DNA from: Candidatus Komeilibacteria bacterium
GTDB taxonomy: Bacteria > Patescibacteriota > Patescibacteriia > UBA1558 > 2-01-FULL-52-15
Length of the DNA: 64,000 nucleotides
Assembly (NCBI GenBank): GCA_043801745.1
Contig: JAZDLR010000001.1
Location: forward strand, 24,374 to 88,373
Direction of reading: 5' to 3'
A program made the position numbers and the translations under genes. This document shows, in pieces, positions 1,574 to 47,126 of the stretch (within the stretch, counting starts at the first letter, position 1; every line of letters begins with the position of its first letter). The notes beneath the pieces are model-generated. The model searched no databases and was not told the DNA's origin. It was given only the letters and a program-made list of their open reading frames with translations.

Positions 1574-1609
1574 TTTTTCTTCAGCTTGACACTGGGAGCA
1601 AATTAGCCT

Positions 1610-1637
1610 AAAAAGGAACTGCTAGCAGTTCCTTTTT
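1610..1637. terminator. bidirectional rho-independent terminator
   Basis: Perfect hairpin aaaaaggaactgc/gcagttccttttt with A and T runs on both flanks. Confidence 0.6.
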
Positions 1638-1659
1638 ACTTACATCAACGGAGGTCAAC

Positions 1660-2073
1660 GTGAGCTTGTCTTGTCAGCGGGCAACTGATCCAGTCAAATT
1701 GCTGAAACGCAACCGGATCAAGGTTCCGATTACAGTCGCGGCGCAAGCCAATCTGGCCGACTTTATCCAGATTGGAAACCGCAGTATGGTCATGAGCAGG
1801 AAAACCCGGATTGAAAAAATCCGACAGGCCCAAGAGCAGTGGATCGGCCAGCGGGTAAAAGATAAGGGCGGGAACCGCTTTGGACGCGTCCTGTATCTGC
1901 GGATCCGGAATTCCTGCAACGATTTTGATGCCAAAGACCGAGTCACTCCGTACCGCATTCCGTTTCTCGCCTACGTTATCTGGGATTACGGGCCGGCCAA
2001 ATCGGTCGGCCTCAGCACACTCGAACTGGTGGCCAAAAAGGGGGAGGCACCGTGTCTCAAGTTAAAACAATAG
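1660..2073 (+). CDS. hypothetical protein, first gene of a GC-rich cassette
   Basis: GTG start 5 nt after the RBS ggagg (1651-1655). The ORF is 137 aa, about 52-55% GC against about 40% for the neighbouring ychF, and has no recognisable motif. Confidence 0.5.
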   Translation: MSLSCQRATDPVKLLKRNRIKVPITVAAQANLADFIQIGNRSMVMSRKTRIEKIRQAQEQWIGQRVKDKGGNRFGRVLYLRIRNSCNDFDAKDRVTPYRIPFLAYVIWDYGPAKSVGLSTLELVAKKGEAPCLKLKQ

Positions 2074-2420
2074 TCCGCGATCGATTCACGACCAAGGATG
2101 GCGTCACCGTCACTCTTCCTTCGCCTGGAGACGTGATCAAGATCACCATGCTAGAATCCAACGATCGACGTCGCCCAGTCGGCAGAGTAATGCAACTGAT
2201 CGTGTTAACTGTCGATATGAGTGGTCCTTTCAGAAACGTAGTCATTAAGACCAACCATCCTGAGCGTCATAATGACACCGAGAGCTTTCAACTTAGTGAC
2301 GACGGTAAATGGATGACCTCTCCAGTCATTTACCTGAAGTGTAATCTGGAGATCATCGGCTCACTCATCATTCCTTTCCAGCCAGGCAGTTATCGGCCGG
2401 AAACCGATGTCGACATGTGA
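2052..2420 (+). CDS. hypothetical protein, tandem paralogue A (122 aa)
   Basis: GTG start after the RBS gggggagg. Shares the motifs ITMLESNDRRRPVG, VIKTNHPE and FQLSDDGKW with the next ORF. Confidence 0.5.
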   Translation: MSQVKTIVRDRFTTKDGVTVTLPSPGDVIKITMLESNDRRRPVGRVMQLIVLTVDMSGPFRNVVIKTNHPERHNDTESFQLSDDGKWMTSPVIYLKCNLEIIGSLIIPFQPGSYRPETDVDM

Positions 2421-2439
2421 AACCTGCAAGGAGCGAGTC

Positions 2440-2808
2440 ATGACCAGAGCCAAAACAAGAAGTCGTGCGAAGCCGAAAGACAAGAAGCTGATTCTGCCCA
2501 AGCGCCTGGATACGGTCATGATCACCATGTTAGAGTCTGACGGTCGTCGTCGTCCCGCTGGTCTGGAGATGCACCTGCTCGTATGGTGCGCCAGCAAGCG
2601 TGACCAAAAGGGTAATGCTGTGATCTGGACAAATGACCCGGATTATTTCCGCCGCGTTCTGGCCTTCCGCCTTGGAGCAGACGGTCAGTGGCGAATCGGT
2701 CGCTCCCGAAAGAAAGTCGAAATCAAGATCCAAGGATCACTCCTTGACGCAGCCAAGATGCCGCAGCGGCCAACGGGCTTTCAGGCCGGAGCCACATTCG
2801 CTCGCTGA
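2440..2808 (+). CDS. hypothetical protein, tandem paralogue B (122 aa)
   Basis: ATG at 2440 follows the RBS aaggag; the ORF-track start at 2407 has no RBS. Carries ITMLESDGRRRPAG, VIWTNDPD and FRLGADGQW, matching paralogue A. Confidence 0.5.
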   Translation: MTRAKTRSRAKPKDKKLILPKRLDTVMITMLESDGRRRPAGLEMHLLVWCASKRDQKGNAVIWTNDPDYFRRVLAFRLGADGQWRIGRSRKKVEIKIQGSLLDAAKMPQRPTGFQAGATFAR

Positions 2809-2814
2809 AACTTT

Positions 2815-2849
2815 GGGCTCTGTTCAAATCACGAACAGAGCCCTTTTCC
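2815..2849 (+). terminator. rho-independent terminator closing the GC-rich cassette
   Basis: Hairpin gggctctgttc-aaatcacg-aacagagccc followed by ttttcc. Confidence 0.6.
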
Positions 2850-2908
2850 ATTATTATTATCCTCTCCCAAAAAAGGAATTTAGCCCAAAGTCAATTCAGA
2901 TAAATTCC

Positions 2909-2948
2909 TTGACCCCGTTAGAGGCGAAGCATCTCTAACGGGGTTGAC
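2909..2948. repeat. palindromic element, copy 1 of the TTGAC-CCCGTTAGA...TCTAACGGG-GTTGAC family
   Basis: ttgaccccgttagag-gcgaagcat-ctctaacggggttgac. The same arms recur at 17137, 20391, 21337, 23957, 28396, 40661 and 48864. Confidence 0.6.
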
Positions 2949-2972
2949 TTTTAATTGAATCTGTGCTAAAAT
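2944..2972 (+). promoter_or_regulatory. sigma70-like promoter overlapping the right arm of the palindromic element
   Basis: TTGACT at 2944-2949, a 17-nt spacer, and TAAAAT at 2967-2972. No protein ORF follows; a hairpin plus U-tract lies about 100 nt downstream. Confidence 0.35.
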
Positions 2973-3013
2973 GACTTATGTAGGTTCATTCTAGCTACGG
3001 AAAATAAAAAATA

Positions 3014-3068
3014 AACATCAGGTCAATCAACTCCACGCCAACACCGATTCTGATGTTGGTATTTTTTA
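3014..3068 (+). terminator. hairpin with a T-tract, possibly the end of a short non-coding transcript
   Basis: aacatcag ... ctgatgtt forms an 8-bp stem and is followed by ggtatttttta. Confidence 0.3.
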
Positions 3069-3178
3069 TATCGTTCTTTTGGTAGATAGTTACAACCAAT
3101 GAGCCACCACCTAGTGGGGCTACCAAATAATAAGTTGTGACTAATAGACATTTATAATTCACCACGAGGGTGAGTCAG

Positions 3179-3687
3179 CTAACAAGCTGATAAGAAAAAA
3201 CAAAACCAAATCAACATGCAGGCCCTATCTTCATCCAATGGAAGACAAGGCTCTAGCCTCGGGACCCCATGCTTGTTCCGAGGTTTTTGCTTTTTCACTC
3301 CACTCATCTTGACACGATAGCTAAACAGTGGTAGATTTGGCGCTAAATGTTCCTTGGGCATGTGACAAGCAATAGATTGCTGAATGGCAAAGCGCTGTTC
3401 AGAAATCTTCTCGGGCCAGCTGTTGTGGATCAGATTTACCACTATTAACGGCCCCACCGCCTTGAGCTGCTTGTCACAGTAGTATTTGGTACCGCCGGTG
3501 CGTTTGGGAACTGGTATGTGCGGCCACTACCACTACCAACCACCGGTGGTACCGAAAATAAATTTCCGCTGTGCTGCTGGTATTCAGGCCGACGCCATCC
3601 CTGAATTTGGGCCGCGCCAAATCCTGATACCTTCAGTACGGCGGGATATATTTCGCAAAATGCCTGTCCTGTTTTCGGTGCTAGCAA
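3179..3687 (-). pseudogene. possible degraded GC-rich gene remnant (two adjacent-frame ORFs of 92 and 80 aa)
   Basis: Two abutting minus-strand ORFs in different frames with locally elevated GC. No recognisable domain and no good alternative frame. Confidence 0.2.
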
Positions 3688-3847
3688 TCACGCCTTGCGT
3701 CAGCTAAGCGGCCTGCCTGCCGCGCAAGGTTGCCTTGATTGGCTTCACCGATCTGGCCGGACCCGACAAAGAAGTGACTCAGCTGATATTAGGGTACGCA
3801 ACCCCTAATCACTGACGATCTCTGAGTTAGGTCCGGTCTCTTTAATT

Positions 3848-3885
3848 TAAAAAACTCCACGACAAAGGAGTGAAATATTTTTTTA
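3848..3885. terminator. bidirectional terminator downstream of ruvB
   Basis: actccacgacaaaggagt hairpin flanked by A and T tracts. Confidence 0.4.
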
Positions 3886-3918
3886 TCATACTACAACCTA
3901 AAGCCTAATTCCTAACGC

Positions 3919-4950
3919 CTACAATAATTTCTGCGTCACATCCTGCGGCGGCGTCAATCCCATATGTTCATAGCCTCGTTCCGTAACCACGCGTCCACGT
4001 GGTGTCCGAGCGAGAAATCCCAACTGCATTAAATAGGGCTCGTAGATTTCTTCAATCGTTCCCATATCTTCCTGCATCGAAGCCGCCAAAGTGGTGAGCC
4101 CTACCGGTCCGCCGCTAAATTTTTCAATCACAGTTAACAATAACTGCCGGTCCAATTCTTCTAAACCCGCCTGATCAATACCTAACATGTCTAGGGCCTC
4201 TTGTGTTTGCCGCAAAGTAATACGTCCGCCGTCACCTTTGACTTGCGAAAAATCGCGCACGCGTTTCAAAATACGGTTGGCGATACGCGGAGTGGCACGG
4301 CTGCGGCGGGAAATTTCTGACGCCGCGTCATCATCCAATGATAAAGCCAATAGTTGCGCCGAACGCCGGACAATCTGACCGATTTCATCTTTGCGGTAAA
4401 AATCTAAACGGTAAGTTACGCCAAAACGGTCACGCAACGGCGCTGATAATAAATTGTAACGCGTGGTCGCGCCAATAATGGTAAAGCGCGGTAAATCTAA
4501 CCGAACTGTTTGCGCACTTGGTCCCTTACCAATAATTAGATCAATAGCGCAATCTTCCATAGCCGGATAAAGAATTTCCTCAATCACTTTATTCAGACGG
4601 TGGATCTCATCAATAAACAAAATATCTCCGCCTTGCATATTAGTCAGGATCGCCGCCAGATCTCCGGCTTTAGTAATAGCCGGCCCAGAAGTTGTCTTGA
4701 TATTAGCTCCCATCTCGCGGGCAATAATATGAGCCAGTGTTGTTTTGCCTAAACCCGGAGGACCATAAATCAAAACATGCTCAATCGGTTCATTGCGCTG
4801 CTTGGCCGCCTGCAAGAAAATATCCAGATTATTCTTCACCTGTTCCTGACCAATGTACTCGGCTAAAAATCTGGGACGCAAAGTCAGGTCCAGAGTCTTA
4901 TCCTCCGGCAGTTCCTTTAAACTCAAAGATTTATGGGGGTCAACAGTCAT
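3919..4950 (-). CDS. ruvB: Holliday junction branch migration ATPase RuvB
   Basis: Walker A motif [15 protein letters not shown] and the RuvB-type AAA+ and winged-helix C-terminus. Length 343 aa. Confidence 0.95.
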
Positions 4951-12498: not shown

Positions 12499-13545
12499 GT
12501 GAATCGGAATGCTCGCGACATCGCTGTGGCCTGCTTTATCGGCGGGTCAGCTCTGGTGCTACTGTCACTGATCCTAATACCTACACTGTGGTGGCTAGCT
12601 TTTCCGGCCGGTGCAGCCATTGGTTACTTTGGTTGGCGTTTCAGTCAGTCTGTGGCCGGCTTCAAGCTGGCCTGGACCCGCTACTGGCGAGGACTGGATC
12701 TGCAAGAAACTCTGACCGATATCAAAGATGTTTCTACGGCCTTGAGCCGAGCGATCGTGGCAGTAATTGCTACACATCTGTTGGGCGTTCTTGGCTTGAT
12801 CTCTGGCATGGTTCTGTTATGCCTGCTTGCGATTGTCAACAACGGACAGACGCTCAAGGCAGACTTTATACCCCTGTACAAGGAAGGGCTTACTGAATTT
12901 ATCAAGCTGACCCCATTCCTCACTCATCATTGGGGCTGGCTGATTCTGTGGTTTTCCGTGATTACTTTTGTCGGATATATGTTCCTGGCAATGTCCGCCG
13001 AAAGTCTGTTCTACCAACTCGCGAAGCGGAAGCAACATCTTGTTCACGACCTGGTCAGTGAACACGGCAATTACGACCACCATCCGGAGGTTAGAATTTC
13101 CACCTCACGGTTATTCTTCTATGCCTTACGCTTTGTGCTCTATGGCTGGCTAGTCTGGTATCTCGTACCAGGAACTATTTTTCTTGTCAGACACCTTATC
13201 AGAGGCGTTGCCTGGCTAGTGCTGAAGTTGGCGATTCTCCTGATAATTAAACTGCCAATTCTCCTGTTTTGGTGCCTGATCGGCCTCCCGGGGTTCATCT
13301 GGAATATCTTCCGCTTCATCCACACGCGGGAACGGCTAGTGGTGGCGGTGGATACTTTCCTTGGTGGTGGAGCAGTTGCCTGGTGGCTACATCAGTCCCA
13401 GCTTCAGCTGCCGCTGTGGCAGAATCTGCTGGCTGTGATTTTCGGTGGGCTAGCTGCCAGCATCATAGGAGTGGTCAACTATCAGTTGGTTGGCGTCAAG
13501 TGGCTCAAAACACTTCCGTCGGCCACTGAACGTTCCGAGATTTAA
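12499..13545 (+). CDS. hypothetical polytopic membrane protein (GC about 52%)
   Basis: GTG start 6 nt after the RBS aaggag. Several predicted transmembrane helices. Confidence 0.5.
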   Translation: MNRNARDIAVACFIGGSALVLLSLILIPTLWWLAFPAGAAIGYFGWRFSQSVAGFKLAWTRYWRGLDLQETLTDIKDVSTALSRAIVAVIATHLLGVLGLISGMVLLCLLAIVNNGQTLKADFIPLYKEGLTEFIKLTPFLTHHWGWLILWFSVITFVGYMFLAMSAESLFYQLAKRKQHLVHDLVSEHGNYDHHPEVRISTSRLFFYALRFVLYGWLVWYLVPGTIFLVRHLIRGVAWLVLKLAILLIIKLPILLFWCLIGLPGFIWNIFRFIHTRERLVVAVDTFLGGGAVAWWLHQSQLQLPLWQNLLAVIFGGLAASIIGVVNYQLVGVKWLKTLPSATERSEI

Positions 13546-17325: not shown

Positions 17326-19970
17326 TTACTCTAACTTCACCCTAGCATCAGCCAACTTCTTCTTTACTTCGTCCACCACCTTTCGCGGCGCACGGGAAGT
17401 AAAATTACTATCGGCTAATTTGGCTTCTAAATCGGCAATATATTTTTTCAATTCGGTCTGGTCAACGCTTTTCTCAACTCCCTGAATATCGGTAATTAAT
17501 CTAAACCAACTACCTTTTAGTTCCAGCTTTGATTCCACCTGATCTACCAGCTTCACGCGGCCTAGTGTTTCAATAAATGGCTTCAACGAATCGATCTTTG
17601 GCTGACCAATATACTGTACCTGACTAATCGTAGCCGCTGCTACTTTATTTTCCGCGCGGGCATTACGTAATACGGTCACAATTTCCTGCAATTTCTTCAT
17701 CTCTTCCGCTGCCCCGGTTACCGAGCCCCGATTACCGGTTACTGACGCCTCCTCCGGCCACTGCTCAATCATCAACAACTTATCCTTATTCACCTGTCCC
17801 CAAATTACTTCAGTCACAAACGGAATAAACGGATGCCAGAGCTTAAGTAGATTCTGCAACAAATATAATAATAAGCCATCGCGGTCTTTTTTGGTCTCGG
17901 GTTTAATCCGATTCTCAATTTTCGCAAGCTCGAGATACCAATCCGCGAACTTAGACCAGGTAAAATCGTAAAGTTTTTCCGCGGCCAGAGAAAACATTTT
18001 TTCGTTTAATAAATTGGTTACTTCCGTCACTAACCCGGTATACTCGTACCAAATCCAATAATCTATGTCACCGGATAAAACCGGCAGTTCTTCGATTAAT
18101 TTCGGCTGTTCAACACTGGTTAAGATAAAGCGGGAAATATTCCACAGCTTATTAATAAAGTTGCGGTAGCCCTGAATCTTTTCCGTGTAAAATTTAGAGT
18201 CACTGCCAGGACTAATACCGGCAATTAAACTCAAACGCAATGAATCCGCGCCATACCGACGGACAATATCCATCGGATCAATGCCATTACCTAAGGACTT
18301 AGAAAACTTTTTGCCTTCCGTATCGCGCAACATACCGTGGAAATAAACTTCCCGAAACGGAATTTGATCCAGAGCATACGTGGACATCATAATCATGCGT
18401 GCCATCCAGAAAAACAGCAGTTCATAACCCATCTGCATCCAGGCTGTCGGATGATACTGCTTCAAATCAGGAGTTTCTTTTGGCCAGCCGAGAGTGCTGA
18501 AAGTCCAAGTGCCGGAGGAAAACCAAGTATCAAGAGTATCTTCATCTTGCTGCCAGCCATCGCCAATTGGCGGTGTTACTCCGACGTACATTTCGGAGGA
18601 GTTAGTAGAAAGAAGCAAGGAGGAAGGGTTATCTTCCCTAGCTTCTTTCTCCTTTCTCCTGTCCTATACCAAACCGGAATCCTGTGGCCCCACCAAATCT
18701 GCCGGCTAATACACCAATCATGTAAATTATCTATCCACTGTAAATAACTTTTGCTAAAGCGCTCGGGCTGAATCGCAATTATATTCTCTTTCTTGCCACC
18801 GTGCCCAGTAGTTACTGCTTCACGCATCAGATCTTTCAGACTTTTTCCTTTTTTAGGAATCTGCTTATTGACATCAACAAACCACTGCAGTTTAATCTGC
18901 GGTTCCACTGGCACGTTGCCGCGGTCACTGATGGCCACGCGGTGAAGATAATCTTTTTTCACGTCATAAACTAAACCTTTTTTCTCAAGTTTCTGAACAA
19001 TCTTAGCTCGGGCTTCGCTAATGCTTAAACCCGCGAATTCTCTGGCAATAGGCAGCATTTTTCCGTCAAAGCCAATAATCTGCACTTTATCTAATTTATG
19101 CCGTTCAGCAATATCAAAGTCAACGCTGTCATGCCACGGCGTAATGGTCATGGCGCCAGTGCCAAATTCCGGATCAATAACTTTATCCTTAATAACCGTG
19201 GCCTTCACCGGACCGTTAATCCATTCGCAGTCAAAAGTATCACCATGCTTATATTTCCAATAACGCTTATCATCCGGATGCACCACGACATATTTATCGC
19301 CCAATTTAGTTTCCGGCCGGGCCGTAGTAATGATAAACGGCCCAAAGTGAAAATAATATAAGGGAATATTTTCTTCCTGCCAAACCAGTTCATCATCAGA
19401 AACCGTGGTCGCTAGTTTCGGATCCCAGTTAACGATCCGGTGTCCACGGTAAATCAAGTTATCATTATACATCCGGATAAACATCTCATTTACTGCCGCT
19501 GATCTCTGCTCATCAAAAGTATAAGCCAACCGTGACCAATCACAGCTGGTACCCATAATTCTAATTTGCTTTAATATCGTTTCCCGTGATTTATCCGCGT
19601 AATCTTTGATTAGCTGTAATAATTTCTCGCGACCCAATTCTGTCCGTGGATCTTTATATTTACCCGAAGCAATTAATTCTTTCTCTACCCGTGCCTGCGT
19701 GGCTACGGCCGCGTGATCAGTACCGGGCAGTAACAAAGTTTTCTTGCCCAGCATGCGTTGATAGCGGATCTGTAAATCCATCAGAGCATTTTCCATCGCA
19801 TGGCCCAAATGTAAAACTCCGGTCACATTTGGCGGCGGCATCATAATGGCATAGGGCTCACCTAAACTCGTGGCTAATTTATCCGGATTAAAATATCCTG
19901 AACTTTCCCAGATATGATAAATATCTGATTCGTAATTCGCTGGGTTATATATTTTTGGTAATTCTTTCAT
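17326..19970 (-). CDS. valS: valine--tRNA ligase, split by a frameshift into two ORFs (18576..19970 and 17326..18618)
   Basis: The N-terminal ORF carries PPPNVTGVLHLGHA (HIGH) and WCISRQIWWGHRIPVWY. The C-terminal ORF carries DTLDTWFSSG and KFSKSLGN (KMSKS). The frames change within a purine-rich/pyrimidine-rich segment of about 74 nt between the IPVWY and EMYVGV codons. Confidence 0.85.
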
Positions 19971-19988
19971 AGTATTATGTTTGTCCTT

Positions 19989-20053
19989 CCCCTCCTTACT
20001 AAGGAGGGGTAAGGCCCGCCCGCCTGCGAAGCGCAGCGAGTCGGGCGGGGGTG
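19989..20053. repeat. GC-rich nested-hairpin repeat (CCCCTCCTTACTAAGGAGGGG family), copy 1
   Basis: cccctccttactaaggagggg followed by gcccgcccgcc...cgggcgggggtgg. Related copies lie at 54996-55062 and 58600-58685. Confidence 0.5.
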
Positions 20054-20390
20054 GTAAAAAAATAAAACGCCAATAATAACTATTCGCGTTAACGGCCCCG
20101 CACCAAGCGCCGCGCTGGTGCGGGGCAAGCCCCGACAGCTGACGACACTAGATACAGAGAGACACCACCTTTAACAATACTCAATTTTCGCTGTAACGGA
20201 GCGCCCCGGCACGTTCTACTACCCTTGGTAGGGATTCTTCGAGCTACTCTTCCGCACAACTAAGCGGAATTTCTAGGAGACATTACCTAGATCTAGAGTA
20301 TTTATGTTTTCAAATCGACACCCCTTTTAATTTGGCTTTTGGATAGCCATACCGAGGCGCACTTTTAATGTAGCTCTGGGCTTATAAATA

Positions 20391-20506: not shown

Positions 20507-21127
20507 CTAGCTGGCAGGGCTGATACGGACAGCGGCGTAAAGGACCTCAAATTCCTGCAGCTTATCTACCCATATCGGCCCCACACTCAAACGTCCAGCA
20601 TCTCTATAAATATTGGCCACACGCTCCCGCTCGGCAAAGAGCCACGTAGTTCCGAGAGCAACTACGGTGGCCCTAGGATTGAAACCGGGAAGCGCTCCGA
20701 GAGCCAACAGCTCTTCGGCTCTGGCCGGCCGGTATCCAACACGCCTCATGCGGCACACTGCTTCCCGCGGACTGACGCTCCGCGAGAAGGGGAAAAGCTC
20801 TATGACAACCGGCACCTTTCCCCGGCCCCTGAGTTTGATGTCGAAGGCCGCCGTATCAAGGCAACGGTGCGTGTAACTGCCCAAATCCATCATGTGTGAC
20901 AGATCTAGGGAATAGTCCACAATTACGGAGAAAATCTGACGACCAGCGGTAAGTGATTCGGCAATTAGTTTGGCGATCTTCTTGCGAAGGTCGCCATCCG
21001 TGTGCACATTGCTCAACGCTTCGTCGGTCCTCTCACCGACCAGAGCACGAACGTCCTCGGCGATCCATTTGAACATTTCGCCCAAAACGCCTACATTGCT
21101 CACGAATCCACTCCAAGAACAAGCCAT
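20507..21127 (-). CDS. hypothetical protein in a GC-rich single-gene cassette (about 57% GC)
   Basis: A 206-aa ORF bracketed by palindromic elements at 20391-20432 and 21337-21365. No recognisable motif. Confidence 0.5.
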   Translation of the reverse strand: MACSWSGFVSNVGVLGEMFKWIAEDVRALVGERTDEALSNVHTDGDLRKKIAKLIAESLTAGRQIFSVIVDYSLDLSHMMDLGSYTHRCLDTAAFDIKLRGRGKVPVVIELFPFSRSVSPREAVCRMRRVGYRPARAEELLALGALPGFNPRATVVALGTTWLFAERERVANIYRDAGRLSVGPIWVDKLQEFEVLYAAVRISPAS

Positions 21128-40701: not shown

Positions 40702-41162
40702 GAGGCCCAACCTTGTCTAAACTGATGCTACTTGCTCTTTGTAGCCCCTTTATCCATCAACATCCATTTCATTTCCTTGAGGCTTGAAACCTCATACCGG
40801 AGTAGCTGCCGGTAACAATCTAATGAGTTGAGAACAAACAGTAGTATCTGTAGCTCGGGTATTTCTGTTTTTTCTTAACGCCGAATCCGTGGCCAAAGGA
40901 TAAATGGAACCTAAATAAATTTCTGACGTTCCGATTCGAAGACCGCGAATGGCGTTAACCCGCCGTATCGAGCTCAGCTCGAGAAGGAGGGTTGTCCGAC
41001 ATTAAACGAACAAGAGAAGAGCACCTTGACAACTGAATCAACAGCAACACCATTAGATAGTGAATAACAATTGAAATGTGACGGTTAATGTCAATTCGTT
41101 GCTGCGTTCTGCGCAGTAACATAACATGAATTTTTTTCGAGCCTACAAGCTCACTCTAACAA

Positions 41163-42775
<1,613 letters not shown>

Positions 42776-42995
42776 AAGGAGATATTGTTCTCTACTTCAC
42801 GGTAGAGAATATTAGTCGAGTCTCTGCAAAGAGATAATTTCATCAGGGCGACCTGGTGGAGACAAGTCTCCCGCCATCGGCGGGAGCAGCATTAGCCGTC
42901 GCATTTTAGTTGTTATAAGTGTTGCAATAAAATAAAATCAGCCGAAAGGGCTGTTTTGTTTTATTTGAAAGGTATATACTTATGTTAGAAAAATA

Positions 42996-43694
42996 ATGAA
43001 ATCGAAAAAAATAGGAAATATATCGCCACCATCAAAACTTCGCTACTTATATTCTTTAATAATAATTGGCGGATCCTGTTTTGCTTTTCTATTTTACAAT
43101 GAATCAATAAGTCATTTCGATCTTAGTCTTGCTGGGGCAGCATTTATCTTAGGGGCTTTATACTTTCTTGGGATCATAAATATAATTTTCTTGATACTAT
43201 CCGTGATGTCCAAACAAAAAGGCAAACCTTATCACCTAGCATTTGCTATTTGCTTGGTCCTGCTTATTATTTTTTTCATGCAGTGTCTGAATCAAATCCG
43301 TGACTTTAAAAATATAGCAATTAAAAGCGACAATGATAAAGAAGAATACATAAATGCATCTATTTCTGCTGATAAGGCAAGCCTCTTATCCGATTGTAAT
43401 GGTATGCAACAATATTCGCAAGAAATCTGGCAAAGATGTATTAATAGAACCCTGAGCAACAAATCTCAACTAACTGAATGTAAAGATCAAGTGGGAAATT
43501 CCGAGGGTATGAATTACAGCAACAATCTAAATGACGCAACCAAGGGTGCGCCTCTTTACGTTTACTGCTACGGGGCCTTAGCGCTTAATCAAAACAATCC
43601 CTCTATCTGTGATCAATTATCCGTTAAAGGATCCGATAATAACCAGAATGTTCAATACTGTCGGTGGTATTATTCTAATTATCATGAGAAGTAG
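42996..43694 (+). CDS. hypothetical membrane protein, strongly AT-rich, with a Cys-rich C-terminal domain
   Basis: A 232-aa ORF with transmembrane helices near the N-terminus and GC well below the window average. Confidence 0.45.
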   Translation: MKSKKIGNISPPSKLRYLYSLIIIGGSCFAFLFYNESISHFDLSLAGAAFILGALYFLGIINIIFLILSVMSKQKGKPYHLAFAICLVLLIIFFMQCLNQIRDFKNIAIKSDNDKEEYINASISADKASLLSDCNGMQQYSQEIWQRCINRTLSNKSQLTECKDQVGNSEGMNYSNNLNDATKGAPLYVYCYGALALNQNNPSICDQLSVKGSDNNQNVQYCRWYYSNYHEK

Positions 43695-44091
43695 CCGGCA
43701 TCATTATTATATTCAAAGACAAAAAAACAGCCGCCGAGGCTGATTTTTTTGTTATTCAATATACTTGCCAAATGTGAGTTAATTTGTTATTATCACCGCC
43801 GTATCTTTAACATTTTATCGCATTTTATTTGAAATGGGCGCCCCTCTCCCTCGGCAAGCTCGGGATCGGGGCAGGCTCCGCGAATTTAGGATGTAGGCAT
43901 GTGGTGGGCGCGTAGCTTCCGCCTTCGCTGAAGCTTCGGCGGACGTAGCAGGTGATTATATCAAAAATAAAGCGCGCCTGCCCCGCACGAGCCGGGCGAG
44001 TTGCGGGGTCACTGACCCGCCTGCCAAAGTACGAACATTTCAAATAGGTCACATAATAACGGAAGTATCGTGATTATTGTCGGTCACTGGT

Positions 44092-44168
44092 GGGCGCGTA
44101 GCTCAGGTGGTTAGAGCGCGTCACTGATAATGACGAGGTCGATGGTTCGAGTCCATCCGCGCCCACCA
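44092..44168 (+). tRNA. tRNA-Ile (anticodon GAU)
   Basis: GGGCGCGTAGCTCAGGTGGTTAGAGCGCGTCACTGATAATGACGAGGTCGATGGTTCGAGTCCATCCGCGCCCACCA. Confidence 0.9.
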
Positions 44169-44295
44169 GTGGTTGATAATAGTGATACTTCGTACGGCGG
44201 TAAACGAAGGACACCGCAAGGCTCCTTCTCGGCTAGCTCGAAGTTGCCAACGGGTCAGGCTGAAAATCCAAAACATTTCTCTGGTGCCATATTGA

Positions 44296-44370
44296 GCCGA
44301 GGTAGCTCAGTGGTAGAGCGAAGGACTGAAAATCCTTGCGTCGGCAGTTCAATTCTGCCCCTCGGCACCA
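44296..44370 (+). tRNA. tRNA-Phe (anticodon GAA)
   Basis: GCCGAGGTAGCTCAGTGGTAGAGCGAAGGACTGAAAATCCTTGCGTCGGCAGTTCAATTCTGCCCCTCGGCACCA. Confidence 0.9.
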
Positions 44371-44434
44371 GAGAAATGTCGAGGATACTTGCGCTGTGCC
44401 CGGCCGAAGCCGAGTAGCAACGAGGCGAAGGCGG

Positions 44435-44470
44435 GTCGGCAGTTCAATTCTGCCCCTCGGCACCAGAGAA
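44435..44470 (+). repeat. 36-nt direct duplicate of the tRNA-Phe 3' end (T-arm, acceptor and trailer), 59 nt downstream of the gene
   Basis: gtcggcagttcaattctgcccctcggcaccagagaa at 44340-44375 is repeated exactly at 44435-44470. Confidence 0.7.
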
Positions 44471-44487
44471 GTTTTATCAATCTATTT

Positions 44488-44564
44488 CGGGGATTGGCGC
44501 AGTTGGCTAGCGCGCCTGCTTTGGGAGCAGGAGGCCACCAGTTCGAGTCTGGTATCCCCGACCA
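44488..44564 (+). tRNA. tRNA-Pro (anticodon UGG)
   Basis: CGGGGATTGGCGCAGTTGGCTAGCGCGCCTGCTTTGGGAGCAGGAGGCCACCAGTTCGAGTCTGGTATCCCCGACCA. Confidence 0.9.
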
Positions 44565-44569
44565 CCGTC

Positions 44570-44884
44570 ATGACTTTCTACGACCAGGTTTATCATCTGA
44601 CTAAAAAAATCCCCCGTGGCCGCGTGGCTTCGTATGGTCAAATCGCCAGCTTAATTTCTACGCCGCGCGCGGCACGTGTAGTCGGTTGGTGCCTACACGT
44701 TATGGATAATGATTCGGCTCTGCCCTGGCACCGAGTTATTAATAGCAAAGGATACATCTCCACCACTTGCGAAACGCATCCGGCTGATCTACAGGCAGCA
44801 CTTTTAAAAAAAGAAGGGATTAAAGTAACTCGTAAAGATAATCTTTGGTGGATAGATATGAAGCAGTATCAATGGAAACCGTAG
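44570..44884 (+). CDS. alkyltransferase-like protein (MGMT/Ogt DNA-binding domain with Trp in place of the acceptor Cys)
   Basis: YGQIASLISTPRAARVVGWCLHVMDNDSALPWHRVINSKG has PWHRV where MGMT has PCHRV, which marks the ATL subfamily. The start lies 5 nt after tRNA-Pro; the ORF-track start at 44336 runs through two tRNAs. Confidence 0.7.
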   Translation: MTFYDQVYHLTKKIPRGRVASYGQIASLISTPRAARVVGWCLHVMDNDSALPWHRVINSKGYISTTCETHPADLQAALLKKEGIKVTRKDNLWWIDMKQYQWKP

Positions 44885-44993
44885 CAGTTGACAGTTGCCC
44901 GCCACGACTCGCCGTCTTTGGCGAGGCGGGTAAGTTGAAAGTTGATAGTATATCCCTTCTGACAACTTACAACTTAAACCTAACATCTAACAG

Positions 44994-45067
44994 GCGGGTA
45001 TCGTATACTGGTATTACCTCAGCTTTCCAAGCTGATGAAAGGGGTTCGATTCCCCTTACCCGCTCCA
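44994..45067 (+). tRNA. tRNA-Gly (anticodon UCC)
   Basis: GCGGGTATCGTATACTGGTATTACCTCAGCTTTCCAAGCTGATGAAAGGGGTTCGATTCCCCTTACCCGCTCCA. Confidence 0.85.
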
Positions 45068-45167
45068 AGGTAAATGTAGGATCCTTGTAAACAGCTGGAT
45101 TAGTTAGACATCATCTCATCGCTGCGGGACAAGCTGATGACAGTTCTCAGTAACAATAAAACCAATT

Positions 45168-45569
45168 ATGAACACTATTTACAAATTACGGATAATAAAA
45201 ATTATTGCCTGGATAATGGCGATATTTTCGATCCTACCACTTATGACAATTGCCATGATTTTAGTTGGGAAAATTCCAATTATTGATCCTTGGTCAAAAT
45301 GGATTGAAATACATTCACAGGCTTGGTTGTTTTTATACTTCTTAATAGGTGGCATTGGCATTATAAAAGGTAATAAATTGGCGGTATATTTTTCCTTCTT
45401 TTTCGGTGCCTATATTTTATGTGAGGCTTTCTTATTAGCCGTCATTGCTCTTCATACCGGATTTGCACCGATCTATCCTTGGTTTCGGCTTGTTACAAAC
45501 TTTGTGTTTGGTTTGGGGAGTGTCTATATTTTTTACAATAAAAGGCTATTAGATAAAACAGTTAATTAA
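45168..45569 (+). CDS. hypothetical small membrane protein (AT-rich, 4 predicted transmembrane helices)
   Basis: A 133-aa hydrophobic ORF. Confidence 0.4.
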   Translation: MNTIYKLRIIKIIAWIMAIFSILPLMTIAMILVGKIPIIDPWSKWIEIHSQAWLFLYFLIGGIGIIKGNKLAVYFSFFFGAYILCEAFLLAVIALHTGFAPIYPWFRLVTNFVFGLGSVYIFYNKRLLDKTVN

Positions 45570-46009
45570 CTGTTTGCTTTCGACTTCGCTACTTAATTAT
45601 GGCGACCCCCAGCGGTCTTTTTTTATTTCCCTGTGGATAAACATCCCCTTTCTCCTTTCTTCTTACTTCTTTCTTCCATTCATCCGCTAACCTCAGCCGC
45701 TTGCTTATCTGAATCAATATGCTATATTAACTATGTAAGTAAGCCGTACCTTGCATCAAGAGAAATGACTGTACAACAGTCACCAACCTCGAGCTTAGCT
45801 CGAAACCAAAGCGCACCGACTATTTGCTAGTCATAAAGATATTCCCCCCGACCCCCACCTCCTCCTTCCCTCTCCATCACCCATTCTCCAACCACAATAT
45901 CTTTTCCCTAGCAAACCATCCGGCGCGCTTTTCTCTTTTATAGATGCGCAGTAAATCGGCAGCAGCCTCCATTATTGGGGCTCTTTTTTTATGTTATACT
46001 AAAAGAACT

Positions 46010-46384
46010 ATGAAAAACATCCTCATCCTCGAAGATGAGCCCTCACTGTCGAAAAGTTTAAGTCAGACATTAAAACGGGCCAAATTCGCCGTCACCGCTG
46101 TTGCCAATGGCCGCGACGGTTTAACTGCAGCCGAAGCTCATCATCCCGATCTGATTATTCTGGATATTCTCATGCCAATTATGGACGGTCTTACTGTTTT
46201 ACGGGAACTGAGACAAAAGCCCTGGGCCAAAAAAATCCCCGTCATCATTCTTTCCAACTTAACGCTTAATGAAAAACAGCTGAAAGAATTTACGCAAAGG
46301 CCGCATGCTCAATATTTGGTAAAAGCAGACACTAAATTGAAAGATATTGTTAACGCCGTCAAAAAACTGACTGCCGAAAAATAG
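46010..46384 (+). CDS. single-domain response regulator (CheY-like receiver)
   Basis: MKNILILEDEPSL...DLIILDILMPIMDGLTVLRELR...KIPVIILSN. The phospho-acceptor Asp lies in DLIILDI, and the ATG at 46010 follows an extended -10 sequence tgttatact. Confidence 0.7.
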   Translation: MKNILILEDEPSLSKSLSQTLKRAKFAVTAVANGRDGLTAAEAHHPDLIILDILMPIMDGLTVLRELRQKPWAKKIPVIILSNLTLNEKQLKEFTQRPHAQYLVKADTKLKDIVNAVKKLTAEK

Positions 46385-46536
46385 AACTCTTTCCAAAATA
46401 TTTTAGCCCGCTATACTACCTTCACAGCTGCAGGTATAGTTTCCGCCAGAGGCGGACCCGCCTCTGGCGGGCAAGGGTAAAACCTGTCTTTCCCAAAAAA
46501 ATGTCGTCTTGCCTTTGGCGGGATCGCCCAAAACAC

Positions 46537-46610
46537 GCGGGATTAGTACAATGGTAGTATGTTGGCTTCCCAAGCCAAAGACGCGAGTCCGATTCTCGTA
46601 TCCCGCTCCA
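46537..46610 (+). tRNA. tRNA-Gly (anticodon CCC), with an atypical T-loop TCCGATT
   Basis: GCGGGATTAGTACAATGGTAGTATGTTGGCTTCCCAAGCCAAAGACGCGAGTCCGATTCTCGTATCCCGCTCCA. Confidence 0.75.
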
Positions 46611-46730
46611 TCCTTCGCTTCGCAGAGCGAAGCTACGGATGGCCTTCGGCCATGCGTAGTGACGAAGTCAACGAAGGATGCCCGCCGAAGCCTTGGCGAA
46701 GGCGGGCTATCTATCATTAAACCCAATCAT

Positions 46731-47126
46731 ATGTTGTCAAAAAAAATATTAATTATTCTAGCCGTAATAGTTATACTAGCTGCTGCTGTTCTGGCCCTCC
46801 GCTTCCTGAGCGGACCGGAAGATACTTGGCTGTGCGTCAATAATGCTTGGGTCAAACATGGTAATCCCAGTCAAACCCAGCCGCCAGCAACGGGCTGTGG
46901 TGACACATCAGCCAATCAAAATACTTCCGTGCCAACCGCTGCTGATGCTAGATGTGAGTGTACGAAAGCTCTAGCCGGAAGCACCGGTTATTGGTATGAT
47001 CCTGAATCGGGCAACTGCTGGTCAGCGCAACAACAAAAATTCTGCCAACCGAATTTTACTACCCAAGCCGAATGCCTAAAGACTTGCGGTAACTTATGGA
47101 AAAAAGCCCACGGATCGAGTCAATAA
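46731..47126 (+). CDS. hypothetical small Cys-rich exported protein with a signal/anchor sequence
   Basis: MLSKKILIILAVIVILAAAVLAL followed by 10 Cys in 100 aa. The ORF-track start at 46509 crosses tRNA-Gly. Confidence 0.45.
   Translation: MLSKKILIILAVIVILAAAVLALRFLSGPEDTWLCVNNAWVKHGNPSQTQPPATGCGDTSANQNTSVPTAADARCECTKALAGSTGYWYDPESGNCWSAQQQKFCQPNFTTQAECLKTCGNLWKKAHGSSQ

What the first reader, a model, noticed from the sequence alone, without database searches (positions are those of the whole stretch)
1660..2948. A three-gene GC-rich cassette with two tandem 122-aa paralogues, closed by a terminator plus palindromic element
Three co-oriented ORFs with proper RBSs (ggagg, gggggagg, aaggag) and GTG/GTG/ATG starts sit between the ychF terminator (1610-1637) and a terminator at 2815-2849 followed by element copy 1. 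The second and third ORFs are both exactly 122 aa and share ITMLES(N/D)(D/G)RRRP(V/A)G, VI(K/W)TN(H/D)P(E/D) and F(Q/R)L(S/G)(D/A)DG(K/Q)W, so they are a duplicated pair. GC is about 52-55% against about 40% for ychF. I could match none of the three proteins to a known family. A compact foreign operon with a duplicated component is a common form for toxin-antitoxin or anti-phage modules.
Basis: partly seen in the sequence, partly recalled or inferred. Interest (0 to 1): 0.6.

Follow-up and report, generated by a model that had tools for sequence, protein, structure and literature searches.

The report
Orphan three-gene operon in a CPR bacterium
A real but tiny accessory operon in a Candidatus Komeilibacteria genome encodes three small proteins, two of them old duplicates of a protein family seen only four times in about 15 billion sequences; nothing links it to toxin-antitoxin or anti-phage systems, and its function is unknown.

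Summary
Three co-oriented, tightly packed ORFs with Shine-Dalgarno sites (A 1660-2073, B 2052-2420, C 2440-2808) fill 98% of the space between the ychF terminator and a strong terminator. B and C are true paralogues (36% identity, E 9e-17; dN/dS about 0.27, dS saturated).

The source is a Candidatus Komeilibacteria (CPR) MAG. Its public annotation truncates B to 67 aa and C to 96 aa.

No protein matches Pfam, NCBIfam, PHROGs, PADLOC, PDB, phage or plasmid records. An exhaustive HMMER scan of 1.84 billion representatives found only two distant B/C relatives. Both are solitary genes: one in another Patescibacteria MAG, one on an unnamed 1.1-kb metagenome contig.

B models as an eight-strand all-beta protein with no significant structural neighbour. 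Its conserved residues look structural. A and C are very basic.

The closest genome keeps the ychF...ruvB synteny but lacks the cassette, so it is an accessory indel. GC3 is only moderately atypical. The neighbours are housekeeping genes. The "closing" palindrome belongs to a family of five hairpins in this window that often abut promoters.

Best reading: a lineage-specific ORFan operon for a small, non-enzymatic, probably nucleic-acid-binding complex. A toxin-antitoxin or defence role is unsupported.

The parts
1586..1614 (+). Left junction. TTGACA-17 nt-TAAAAA, 12 nt after the ychF stop. It is either a weak promoter of the cassette or the left copy of the TTGAC junction repeat.
   Evidence: Read. 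The scan did not report it (its -10 rule wants a T at position 6). L003 has TTGACT 11 nt after its own ychF stop. Both homologues have a TTGACA box 56-83 nt upstream of their start.
1609..1638 (.). Perfect 15+15 nt palindrome flanked by A5/T5. It is the terminator of ychF and, in the insertion model, the left-end hairpin of the inserted segment.
   Evidence: I6; I1. Its 5' arm, CCTAAAAAGGAA, recurs at 2867-2878.
1660..2073 (+). Gene A: 137 aa, pI 10.4, ORFan. NCBI V1846_00135.
   Evidence: No family or PDB hit. AF2 on the single sequence was uninformative (pLDDT 38).
2052..2420 (+). Gene B: 122 aa, pI 6.7, all-beta, founding member of the new family. The public call V1846_00140 is truncated to 67 aa.
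   Evidence: (pLDDT 74.5, 8 strands). The homologues align from residue 1.
2440..2808 (+). Gene C: 122 aa, pI 11.3, paralogue of B with a Lys/Arg-rich N-terminal tail. The public call V1846_00145 is truncated to 96 aa.
2815..2849 (+). Intrinsic terminator of the operon: 11-bp stem with 7 G-C pairs, then a T-run.
2867..2910 (+). Right-end hairpin (stem 2873-2882 / 2901-2910). Its 5' arm repeats the 12-nt start of the left hairpin, and it runs into TTGAC at 2909-2913.
   Evidence: D11, I14; the only two exact CCWAAAAAGGAA matches in the 64 kb.
2909..2947 (.). Palindrome c1, TTGACCCCGTTAGAG-9 nt-CTCTAACGGGGTTGA, one of five related hairpins in the window. It is probably a pre-existing terminator or promoter-proximal hairpin rather than part of the cassette.
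   Evidence: The same stems act as ordinary terminators in 65 viral contigs.
2944..2972 (+). Right boundary: promoter of the next unit (TTGACT-17 nt-TAAAAT with TG). It is conserved in L003, where it directly follows ychF.

Best explanation
Window 1586-2948 holds a real, lineage-specific accessory operon in the chromosome of a Candidatus Komeilibacteria (CPR/Patescibacteria) bacterium.

Shown:
- Three translationally coupled genes are bracketed by terminators.
- The segment is missing from the same ychF...ruvB slot in the nearest available genome, so it is an indel of about 1.3 kb.
- B and C are old tandem duplicates under purifying selection.
- They belong to a previously undescribed small all-beta family with four known members, each a singleton cluster. 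Three are in two Patescibacteria MAGs and the fourth is on an unnamed 1.1-kb metagenome contig.
- No protein is related to any catalogued toxin, antitoxin, defence, phage or housekeeping family.

Inferred:
- The proteins are cytoplasmic and non-enzymatic. The only invariant residues are Pro, Gly, Asp, Thr and hydrophobic core positions.
- The solitary ancestral protein works as a homo-oligomer. After duplication, B (neutral) and C (pI 11.3, Lys/Arg-rich tail) work as a hetero-oligomer made in fixed ratio with the very basic protein A.
- The complex binds nucleic acid (DNA or RNA) rather than catalysing a reaction.
- The segment was most probably gained by insertion at a TTGAC in the foot of a terminator hairpin downstream of ychF.

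My confidence is about 0.9 that this is a real accessory ORFan operon with a new family. It is about 0.3 that the products are a nucleic-acid-binding hetero-oligomer.
For: Coding and operon structure. As a control, the coding part is not unusually structured as RNA (z = -0.70).

Paralogy.

Orphan status: the word-index searches of 5.8 billion proteins returned only the window's own genes. Full HMMER over 1.84 billion representatives gave only P0004 (E 6.7e-6) and P0006 (E 8e-4). P0006 is annotated as a Patescibacteria hypothetical protein. Scans of genome, viral and metagenome contigs, phages and plasmids found nothing more.

Fold: the AF2 model of B has pLDDT 74.5, pTM 0.65 and eight strands.

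Charge: pI 10.4 (A), 6.7 (B), 11.3 (C).

Invariant residues: P23 D27 T32 G44 V51 F79 W87 I101 G103 P108.

Indel: L003 has ychF, ruvB, GIY-YIG and gyrA in the same order. Its ychF stop is followed 11 nt later by the homologue of the promoter at window 2944. The downstream landmarks align. L004 and L005 also lack the cassette.

Composition: GC3 is 0.64, 0.54 and 0.61 against mostly 0.43-0.48 for host genes. The homologues are also GC-rich islands (GC3 0.63 and 0.68) in AT-richer flanks.

Junctions: TTGAC at 1586, 2909 and 2944, and a shared 12-nt hairpin arm at both ends.
Against: No experiment or homology ties the proteins to nucleic-acid binding. Basic charge and a weak, non-significant resemblance to small ribosomal beta-barrel proteins (Foldseek E >= 0.1, TM 0.33-0.43) are all there is. 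P0004 is acidic (pI 5.6), so basicity is not a family trait.

Hetero-oligomerisation is inferred only from duplication and coupling.

The direction of the indel (gain here or loss elsewhere) rests on three outgroups that are themselves rearranged. L002 carries its homologue about 2 kb from ruvB, which would also fit old vertical inheritance in a variable slot.

The GC3 deviation of B lies within the host range.

Protein A has no homologue at all, and its model is unusable.
Confidence: 0.45

Rival explanations
1. Toxin-antitoxin or anti-phage defence module. One of the small proteins is a toxin or effector and the others neutralise or sense it.
For: The operon is compact, overlapping and accessory, encodes small basic proteins and has atypical GC3. 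Many defence and toxin-antitoxin families are still undescribed, so a lack of HMM hits is not decisive.
Against: No PADLOC, Pfam or NCBIfam hit at E <= 10 for A, B or C, or at E <= 0.01 (PADLOC) for P0004 and P0006. There is no conserved catalytic residue set. The two homologues are solitary genes with their own promoter and terminator and no partner. The two components that would have to be toxin and antitoxin are paralogues of one fold. The neighbourhood is housekeeping.
Confidence: 0.1
2. Cargo or remnant of a phage or another mobile element of CPR bacteria (a moron-like cassette). The proteins would serve the element, for example as structural, DNA-packaging or host-takeover proteins, rather than the cell.
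For: The segment is an indel relative to L003. GC3 is higher than the host's here and in both homologue loci. The best, though non-significant, fold neighbours in BFVD are small uncharacterised phage beta proteins such as R4T9F6 (E 0.02, TM 0.48/0.60). The segment has hairpins at both ends and TTGAC at both junctions.
Against: No PHROG hit. No tblastn hit in 50,697 phage records or 72,556 plasmids. No relative in IMG/VR. No integrase, transposase or other phage gene among the 39 window ORFs scanned against Pfam. No tRNA or att-like long repeat at the edges.
Confidence: 0.2
3. An ordinary, vertically inherited but very fast-evolving host gene family that sits in a variable slot next to ruvB, was duplicated in this lineage and was lost in close relatives. 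It is not foreign DNA.
For: In L002 (RuvB 63% identical) the homologue P0006 lies about 2 kb from ruvB, convergent with queA-archease-ruvB. In L004 and L005 queA lies in the ychF...ruvB slot. Host GC3 is heterogeneous in the window and in L002.
Against: L003, L004 and L005 lack any homologue in the slot. There are only four members in about 15 billion proteins. A's GC3 excess (z = 4.5) is above every host gene tested.
Confidence: 0.15
4. Artefact: spurious ORFs in GC-rich non-coding DNA, or an assembly chimera that put foreign DNA into the contig.
For: NCBI's gene calls for B and C are short (67 and 96 aa). The source is a MAG. The composition is atypical.
Against: B and C are conserved at protein level with mostly synonymous differences at identical residues. 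Distant homologues align over the full length. The AF2 model is confident. The SD sites are strong. 0 of 5000 shuffles reach the ORF coverage. The segment sits inside a 112-kb contig with host sequence on both sides.
Confidence: 0.03

Closest known systems
Type II toxin-antitoxin operons (for example MazEF, RelBE, with AbrB/RHH/HTH antitoxins)
   Same: Small, overlapping, co-transcribed genes. Patchy, accessory distribution. Basic small proteins.
   Different: There are three genes, and two of them are paralogues of one all-beta fold. No toxin or antitoxin domain is present. The homologues are solitary. No conserved catalytic residues.
Small beta-barrel ribosomal proteins of the bacterial 50S subunit (chains of 103-118 aa; I believe bL19, bL21 or uL24, but that identity is from memory and was not checked)
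   Same: Size of about 120 aa, all-beta, basic extensions in some members. These are the top Foldseek PDB matches.
   Different: The matches are not significant (E 0.1-1, TM 0.33-0.43, rmsd 5-13 A). There is no sequence similarity. The genes are accessory, not universal.
Small uncharacterised beta proteins of tailed phages in BFVD (for example R4T9F6 of Halogranum tailed virus 1)
   Same: Similar size and all-beta topology. These are the best structural scores found (E 0.02-0.05, TM up to 0.48/0.60).
   Different: The scores are below significance, identity is 12-18%, none has a known function, and there is no PHROG or tblastn link.
Integron gene cassettes (ORF plus attC hairpin)
   Same: A compact ORF unit followed by an imperfect palindrome containing GTTA...TAAC. 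All three GC3-outlier ORFan units in the window are followed by a hairpin of the same family.
   Different: The arm order is GTTAGAG...CTCTAAC, the reverse of attC R''(RYYYAAC)...R'(GTTRRRY) (consensus from memory). The hairpin is 31-39 nt, not 57 nt or more. No IntI-type recombinase was found among the ORFs scanned. The same hairpins also follow tsaE and precede the 16S promoter.
IS200/IS605-family elements and their non-autonomous PATE derivatives
   Same: No terminal inverted repeats. A hairpin near each end with a shared arm sequence. A pentanucleotide (TTGAC) at the left flank is repeated at the right end.
   Different: No TnpA or TnpB. Protein A has no histidine, so it has no HUH motif (sequence). 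The two hairpins differ apart from 12 nt. The guide/cleavage-site pairing rule is not met. No second copy was found anywhere.

Membership tests
Type II toxin-antitoxin system | At least one gene product belongs to a known toxin or antitoxin superfamily | tested here: not met
   Pfam, NCBIfam and PADLOC give no match at E <= 10 for A, B or C. Pfam also gives none for any of the four B/C family members.
Type II toxin-antitoxin system | Toxin and antitoxin genes stay adjacent in homologous loci | tested here: not met
   P0004 (L001) and P0006 (L002) are monocistronic, with divergent or convergent neighbours.
Type II toxin-antitoxin system | Toxicity of one component is neutralised by the other | not testable with these tools
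   Needs expression experiments.
Known anti-phage defence systems (PADLOC-DB v2) | HMM match to a defence protein | tested here: not met
   No match for A, B, C, P0004 or P0006.
Known anti-phage defence systems (PADLOC-DB v2) | Located in a defence island, next to other defence genes | tested here: not met
   The neighbours are UvrD-like helicase, YchF, RuvB, GIY-YIG, GyrA, MBL-fold protein, S1 and FtsH. The only PADLOC hits are generic S1-domain and AAA+ matches to the S1 protein and FtsH.
Integron gene cassette | attC site: R''(RYYYAAC)...R'(GTTRRRY) in that order, 57-141 nt, with extrahelical bases | tested here: not met
   The palindrome reads GTTAGAG-9 nt-CTCTAAC (reverse order) and is 31-39 nt. 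The attC consensus is from memory.
Integron gene cassette | IntI tyrosine recombinase and attI nearby | tested here: not met
   No recombinase domain in the 39 window ORFs scanned against Pfam. A few ORFs were not scanned, and the rest of the 112-kb contig was not available.
IS200/IS605 / PATE | Y1 HUH transposase (TnpA) in the element or in trans | tested here: not met
   No Pfam Y1_Tnp hit. Protein A contains no His. A trans-acting TnpA elsewhere in the genome could not be checked.
IS200/IS605 / PATE | Similar subterminal hairpins at both ends, and multiple copies in the genome | tested here: inconclusive
   The two end hairpins share only CC[T/A]AAAAAGGAA. There is no further copy in the 64 kb or in IMG/VR.
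SH3-like / small beta-barrel RNA-binding proteins | Significant structural superposition on a member | tested here: inconclusive

The most novel reading that the evidence does not exclude
The 1.32-kb segment 1591-2913 is a new kind of small, recombinase-less mobile cassette of CPR bacteria. It has hairpins at both ends and is inserted at a TTGAC in the foot of a terminator hairpin. It carries a new beta-barrel family whose duplicated members, together with protein A, form a nucleic-acid-binding complex that benefits the cassette, for example through addiction, exclusion or anti-phage activity. The other two GC3-outlier ORFan units in the window (12499-13545 and 20507-21127), each closed by the same hairpin family, would be further cassettes of this type.
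Probability: 0.08. Interest if true: 0.65.

Novelty: new variant of a known kind. Interest (0 to 1): 0.3.

Why it matters
If the reading is right, this is one more lineage-specific ORFan operon of the kind that fills CPR genomes. It has two concrete, modest pay-offs.

1. It defines a new small all-beta protein family (B, C, P0004, P0006). The family has corrected gene models and a usable structure model, and could be deposited and tested.
2. It shows that the ychF...ruvB interval of Komeilibacteria-like genomes is a variable slot where GC-richer ORFan genes come and go.

It does not open a long-standing question. Its value would rise only if the hairpin-ended segment proved mobile or the proteins proved to have a defined nucleic-acid target.

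Tried and rejected
- **Family libraries.** Pfam, NCBIfam, PHROGs and PADLOC on A, B and C; Pfam, PHROGs and PADLOC on P0004 and P0006. Nothing.
- **PDB by sequence,** with the B/C profile and with A. Nothing below E 0.3.
- **Is A a third, diverged paralogue?** I suspected this from GRV...L motifs. hhalign probability is 0.13, so rejected.
- **AF2 of A alone.** pLDDT 38, unusable.
- **More family members.** Pattern scans of genome, viral and metagenome contigs with A1 and A4 found none. The four-sequence alignment was too divergent for the scanner. tblastn against phages and plasmids found none. A profile search of all ORFs of 147 fetched loci and the window found none.
- **PilZ-like RxxxR / DxSxxG motifs in B.** Considered by eye and rejected: the spacing is wrong and the motifs are absent from C, P0004 and P0006.
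- **AbrB/MazE-like 'LP..GD' motif.** Considered by eye and rejected: the loop is too short and there is no Pfam hit.
- **The palindrome as a cassette-specific att, attC or operator site.** Rejected. Five related hairpins occur in the window, also after tsaE and before the 16S promoter. The same stems are ordinary terminators in 65 unrelated viral contigs, and none occurs in relatives' loci.
- **The 1 kb downstream as a decayed gene.** No tblastx or blastn hits. No Rfam family there either.
- **Terminal inverted repeats or long direct repeats at the cassette edges.** None beyond TTGAC and one 12-mer.
- **Exact look-up of the source contig through P0003 and P0002.** Not on record.
- **Literature search for Komeilibacteria.** Nothing relevant.
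Full report
**1. What is in the sequence**

The window comes from a chromosome of a CPR bacterium. The three proteins are recorded at NCBI as V1846_00135, V1846_00140 and V1846_00145 of a "Candidatus Komeilibacteria bacterium" MAG, on a 112,174-bp contig.

Downstream of ychF (512-1573) lie three co-oriented ORFs:
- A, 1660-2073, GTG start, 137 aa.
- B, 2052-2420, GTG start, 122 aa.
- C, 2440-2808, ATG start, 122 aa. A longer 133-aa form from ATG 2407 has no SD.

Each start has a Shine-Dalgarno site 4-6 nt upstream: GGAGG at 1650-1654, GGGGGAGG at 2040-2047 and AAGGAG at 2428-2433. A and B overlap by 22 nt, and B and C are 19 nt apart.

The block is bracketed by two signals. On the left is a perfect 15+15-nt palindrome with A5/T5 flanks (1609-1638). 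On the right is a strong intrinsic terminator (2815-2843 plus a T-run).

One strand of 1640-2810 is 98% covered by three ORFs of at least 100 aa. None of 5000 dinucleotide-preserving shuffles reached that.

**2. The genes are real and the duplication is old**

B and C align over 118 residues at 36% identity (E 9e-17).

At DNA level, 25 of the 41 identical residues use different codons. pS is 0.72 (saturated) against pN 0.43, so dN/dS is about 0.27 or less. That is the signature of selection on a protein, not of a recent repeat or of non-coding DNA.

As a control, 542 nt spanning gene B and the first part of gene C (2052-2593) is not unusually structured as RNA (z = -0.70).

The public annotation starts B at Met56 (67 aa) and C at Met27 (96 aa). 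The distant homologues align from residue 1-7 onward. The AF2 model has confident strands in residues 11-55. So the long forms are the correct gene models.

**3. Orphan status**

- A, B and C have no match at E <= 10 in Pfam, NCBIfam, PHROGs or PADLOC.
- Word-indexed searches of 5.8 billion proteins returned only the window's own genes.
- A full HMMER search of 1.84 billion cluster representatives with the B+C profile returned two credible distant relatives. P0004 is 132 aa (E 6.7e-6). P0006 is 129 aa (E 8e-4). A third hit, P0005, is a low-complexity repeat artefact.
- Both relatives are singletons. P0006 is a hypothetical protein of a "Patescibacteria group bacterium" MAG.
- Protein A has no relative at all and is not a diverged copy of B/C (hhalign probability 0.13).

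**4. What the proteins look like**

AF2 with the two-sequence alignment gives B a mean pLDDT of 74.5 and pTM of 0.65. The model has eight beta strands and no helix.

Foldseek finds no significant neighbour.
- Against PDB, the best matches are small beta proteins of bacterial 50S subunits (E 0.1-1, TM 0.33-0.43).
- Against BFVD, the best matches are small uncharacterised phage proteins (E 0.02-0.05, TM up to 0.48/0.60).

Across the four family members the invariant residues after the initiator Met are P23, D27, T32, G44, V51, F79, W87, I101, G103 and P108. These look like turn and core positions, and I see no catalytic constellation among them.

By eye I see no signal peptide or hydrophobic segment in the sequences, and GRAVY is negative for all three. 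The pI values are 10.4 (A), 6.7 (B), 11.3 (C), 5.6 (P0004) and 9.7 (P0006). C and P0006 carry Lys/Arg-rich N-terminal tails. AF2 of A without an alignment was useless (pLDDT 38).

**5. Context and origin**

The neighbours are housekeeping genes: UvrD-like helicase, YchF, then RuvB, a small GIY-YIG protein, GyrA, an MBL-fold protein, ribosomal protein S1 and FtsH. I found no integrase, transposase, phage gene or defence gene among the 39 window ORFs scanned against Pfam.

The closest genome in the species-representative collection is L003 (YchF 73% and RuvB 84.5% identical). It has the same order ychF -> ... <- ruvB <- GIY-YIG <- gyrA, but no trace of A, B or C.
- In L003 the ychF stop is followed 11 nt later by a TTGACT-17-TATAAT promoter.
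- That promoter, a T-run, a hairpin plus T-run (window 3257-3297, 83% identical to L003 1816-1855) and a second promoter all line up with window 2944-3340.
- So the difference is an indel of about 1.3 kb that holds the cassette.

L004 and L005 also lack the cassette and carry other genes after ychF.

In L002 (RuvB 63% identical) the homologue P0006 lies about 2 kb from ruvB, beside queA. The family may therefore have some history in this variable slot.

**6. Composition**

ychF is 45% GC and the window averages 44.8%. A, B and C are 54, 49 and 56% GC, with GC3 of 0.64, 0.54 and 0.61. Most host genes have GC3 of 0.43-0.48.

I redrew each protein's codons from host codon usage. The GC3 excess is z = 4.5 (A), 1.8 (B) and 2.8 (C). 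Host genes themselves have SD 1.8 and a maximum of 3.9. The signal is real but moderate.

Both homologues are also GC-rich islands (GC3 0.63 and 0.68) in AT-richer surroundings.

**7. Junctions and the palindrome**

The palindrome at 2909-2947 is one of five related hairpins (CCCCGTT...AACGGGG) in the window, at 2913, 13553, 20396, 21337 and 40666.
- In three of them the 3' arm runs straight into a TTGAC that is the -35 box of a promoter-like site. These are c1 here, c2 upstream of the valS leader, and c4 about 460 nt upstream of the 16S gene.
- Another follows tsaE as a terminator.
- The same stems occur as ordinary terminators in 65 unrelated viral contigs, and none occurs in the relatives' loci.

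So the element is not a cassette-specific site.

TTGAC occurs at 1586 (12 nt after the ychF stop), at 2909 (left foot of the palindrome) and at 2944 (right foot, the -35 box). Deleting 1591-2913 would recreate a complete c2-like hairpin directly after ychF.

That 1323-bp segment has a hairpin near each end. Their 5' arms share CC[T/A]AAAAAGGAA, and these are the only two exact matches in the 64 kb. There are no terminal inverted repeats.

This fits insertion at a TTGAC in a terminator foot. But TTGACA at 1586 could equally be the cassette's own -35 box, because both homologues have a TTGACA 56-83 nt upstream of their start. The evidence is suggestive only.

**8. Mechanism**

Shown: a real, accessory, three-gene operon; a new small all-beta family; an old tandem duplication under purifying selection; and no link to any catalogued family.

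Inferred:
- The family protein can work alone, because the homologues are solitary. It is a binding or scaffold protein rather than an enzyme, because only apparently structural residues are conserved.
- After duplication, B and C diverged in charge. They are made in fixed proportion with the very basic protein A, which points to a hetero-oligomer.
- Two strongly basic components with Lys/Arg tails make nucleic acid the most likely ligand.

I put about 0.3 on that functional statement and about 0.9 on the structural description.

**9. Rivals**

- **Toxin-antitoxin or defence (0.1).** Unsupported for the reasons in sections 3-5.
- **Phage or mobile-element cargo (0.2).** Compatible with the indel, the composition and the end hairpins, but no viral or plasmid relative exists in any collection searched.
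- **Vertically inherited, fast-evolving host gene (0.15).** Compatible with the ruvB proximity in L002, but not with the absence from L003, L004 and L005.
- **Artefact (0.03).** Contradicted by the protein-level conservation.

**10. Verdict**

"Foreign compact operon" is largely right. "Toxin-antitoxin or anti-phage" is not supported.

The proteins define a new family, but ORFan operons are common in CPR genomes and nothing here points to a new kind of system. I score interest at 0.3.

The most interesting loose ends lie outside the finding: a candidate 540-nt structured RNA just downstream, and the hairpin family that closes all three GC-rich ORFan units in the window.

Noticed in passing
window 3344-3885 (+), promoter-like site 3309-3337: A stretch of about 540 nt with no credible ORF lies behind a TTGACA-17-TAGATT (TG) promoter-like site and ends at a bidirectional terminator shared with ruvB. 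It folds far better than shuffles (MFE -213.6 against -161.9 +/- 6.6, z = -7.84; minus strand z = -6.55). A 542-nt coding control from the cassette gives z = -0.70. There is no Rfam hit at E <= 10, no tblastx or blastn relative in the fetched loci, and no phage match. It is a candidate large structured non-coding RNA.
   Followed up: partly
window 2944-3340; L003 1550-1900: An ORF-free array of promoter, about 90-nt transcript, terminator, about 190 nt, hairpin plus T-run (3257-3297) and a second promoter has its landmarks conserved between the window and the closest relative, L003. The 41-nt hairpin is 83% identical. These are possibly small RNA genes.
   Followed up: partly
window 2913, 13553, 20396, 21337, 40666: A family of five hairpins with conserved outer stems, CCCCGTT...AACGGGG, and variable, compensated inner stems and loops. 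Three run directly into a TTGAC -35 box. One of those (c4) sits about 460 nt upstream of the 16S rRNA gene. The stems also occur as ordinary terminators in 65 IMG/VR contigs.
   Followed up: partly
window 12499-13545 (+) and 20507-21127 (-): Two more GC3-outlier ORFs (348 aa with GC3 0.59; 206 aa with GC3 0.60) have no Pfam or PADLOC match. Each is followed by a hairpin of the same family, as the A-B-C cassette is. The 206-aa ORF sits between tsaE and valS with its own TTGACA-17-TATTAT promoter-like site. All three compositional outliers in the window therefore share this 3' hairpin.
   Followed up: partly
window 19971-20385 (-): About 415 nt of GC-rich, ORF-poor sequence lies between the c2 hairpin/promoter and the valS start. 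It folds with z = -6.05. There is no T-box or other Rfam hit at E <= 1. It is a possible structured leader or separate RNA.
   Followed up: partly
window 17326-19970 (-): Valyl-tRNA synthetase is split into two ORFs that overlap by 43 nt (18576-19970 for the N-terminal part, 17326-18618 for the C-terminal part). An imperfect 24-nt inverted repeat sits at 18597-18660. This could be a frameshift, a sequencing error or a genuine split gene.
   Followed up: no
window 2052-2420 and 2440-2808: The public NCBI gene calls are truncated at the N-terminus (V1846_00140 to 67 aa, V1846_00145 to 96 aa). Homologues and the structure model support the 122-aa forms.
   Followed up: yes
window 41157-47000: The 16S rRNA gene (1617 nt against a 1533-nt model) is not followed by a 23S gene anywhere in the window. 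Instead there is a 232-aa AT-rich ORF with no Pfam match (42996-43694) and a cluster of tRNA genes (Ile, Phe, Pro, Gly, Gly).
   Followed up: no
L003 1540-4440: In the closest relative, the same ychF...ruvB slot holds different lineage-specific content. This includes an 80-aa Cys-rich (CxxC) ORF at 3004-3246 and a GC-rich 375-aa ORF with a Gly-rich stretch at 3313-4440. A further 576-aa ORF lies between ruvB and GIY-YIG. The slot is a hot spot of gene turnover.
   Followed up: no
L002 600-860: Downstream of the P0006 homologue lies a run of four short hairpins with GGAA/TTCC-type centres (for example GGCTTTCCAGCC, GACTGGAAAGTC). I saw this by eye only.
   Followed up: no
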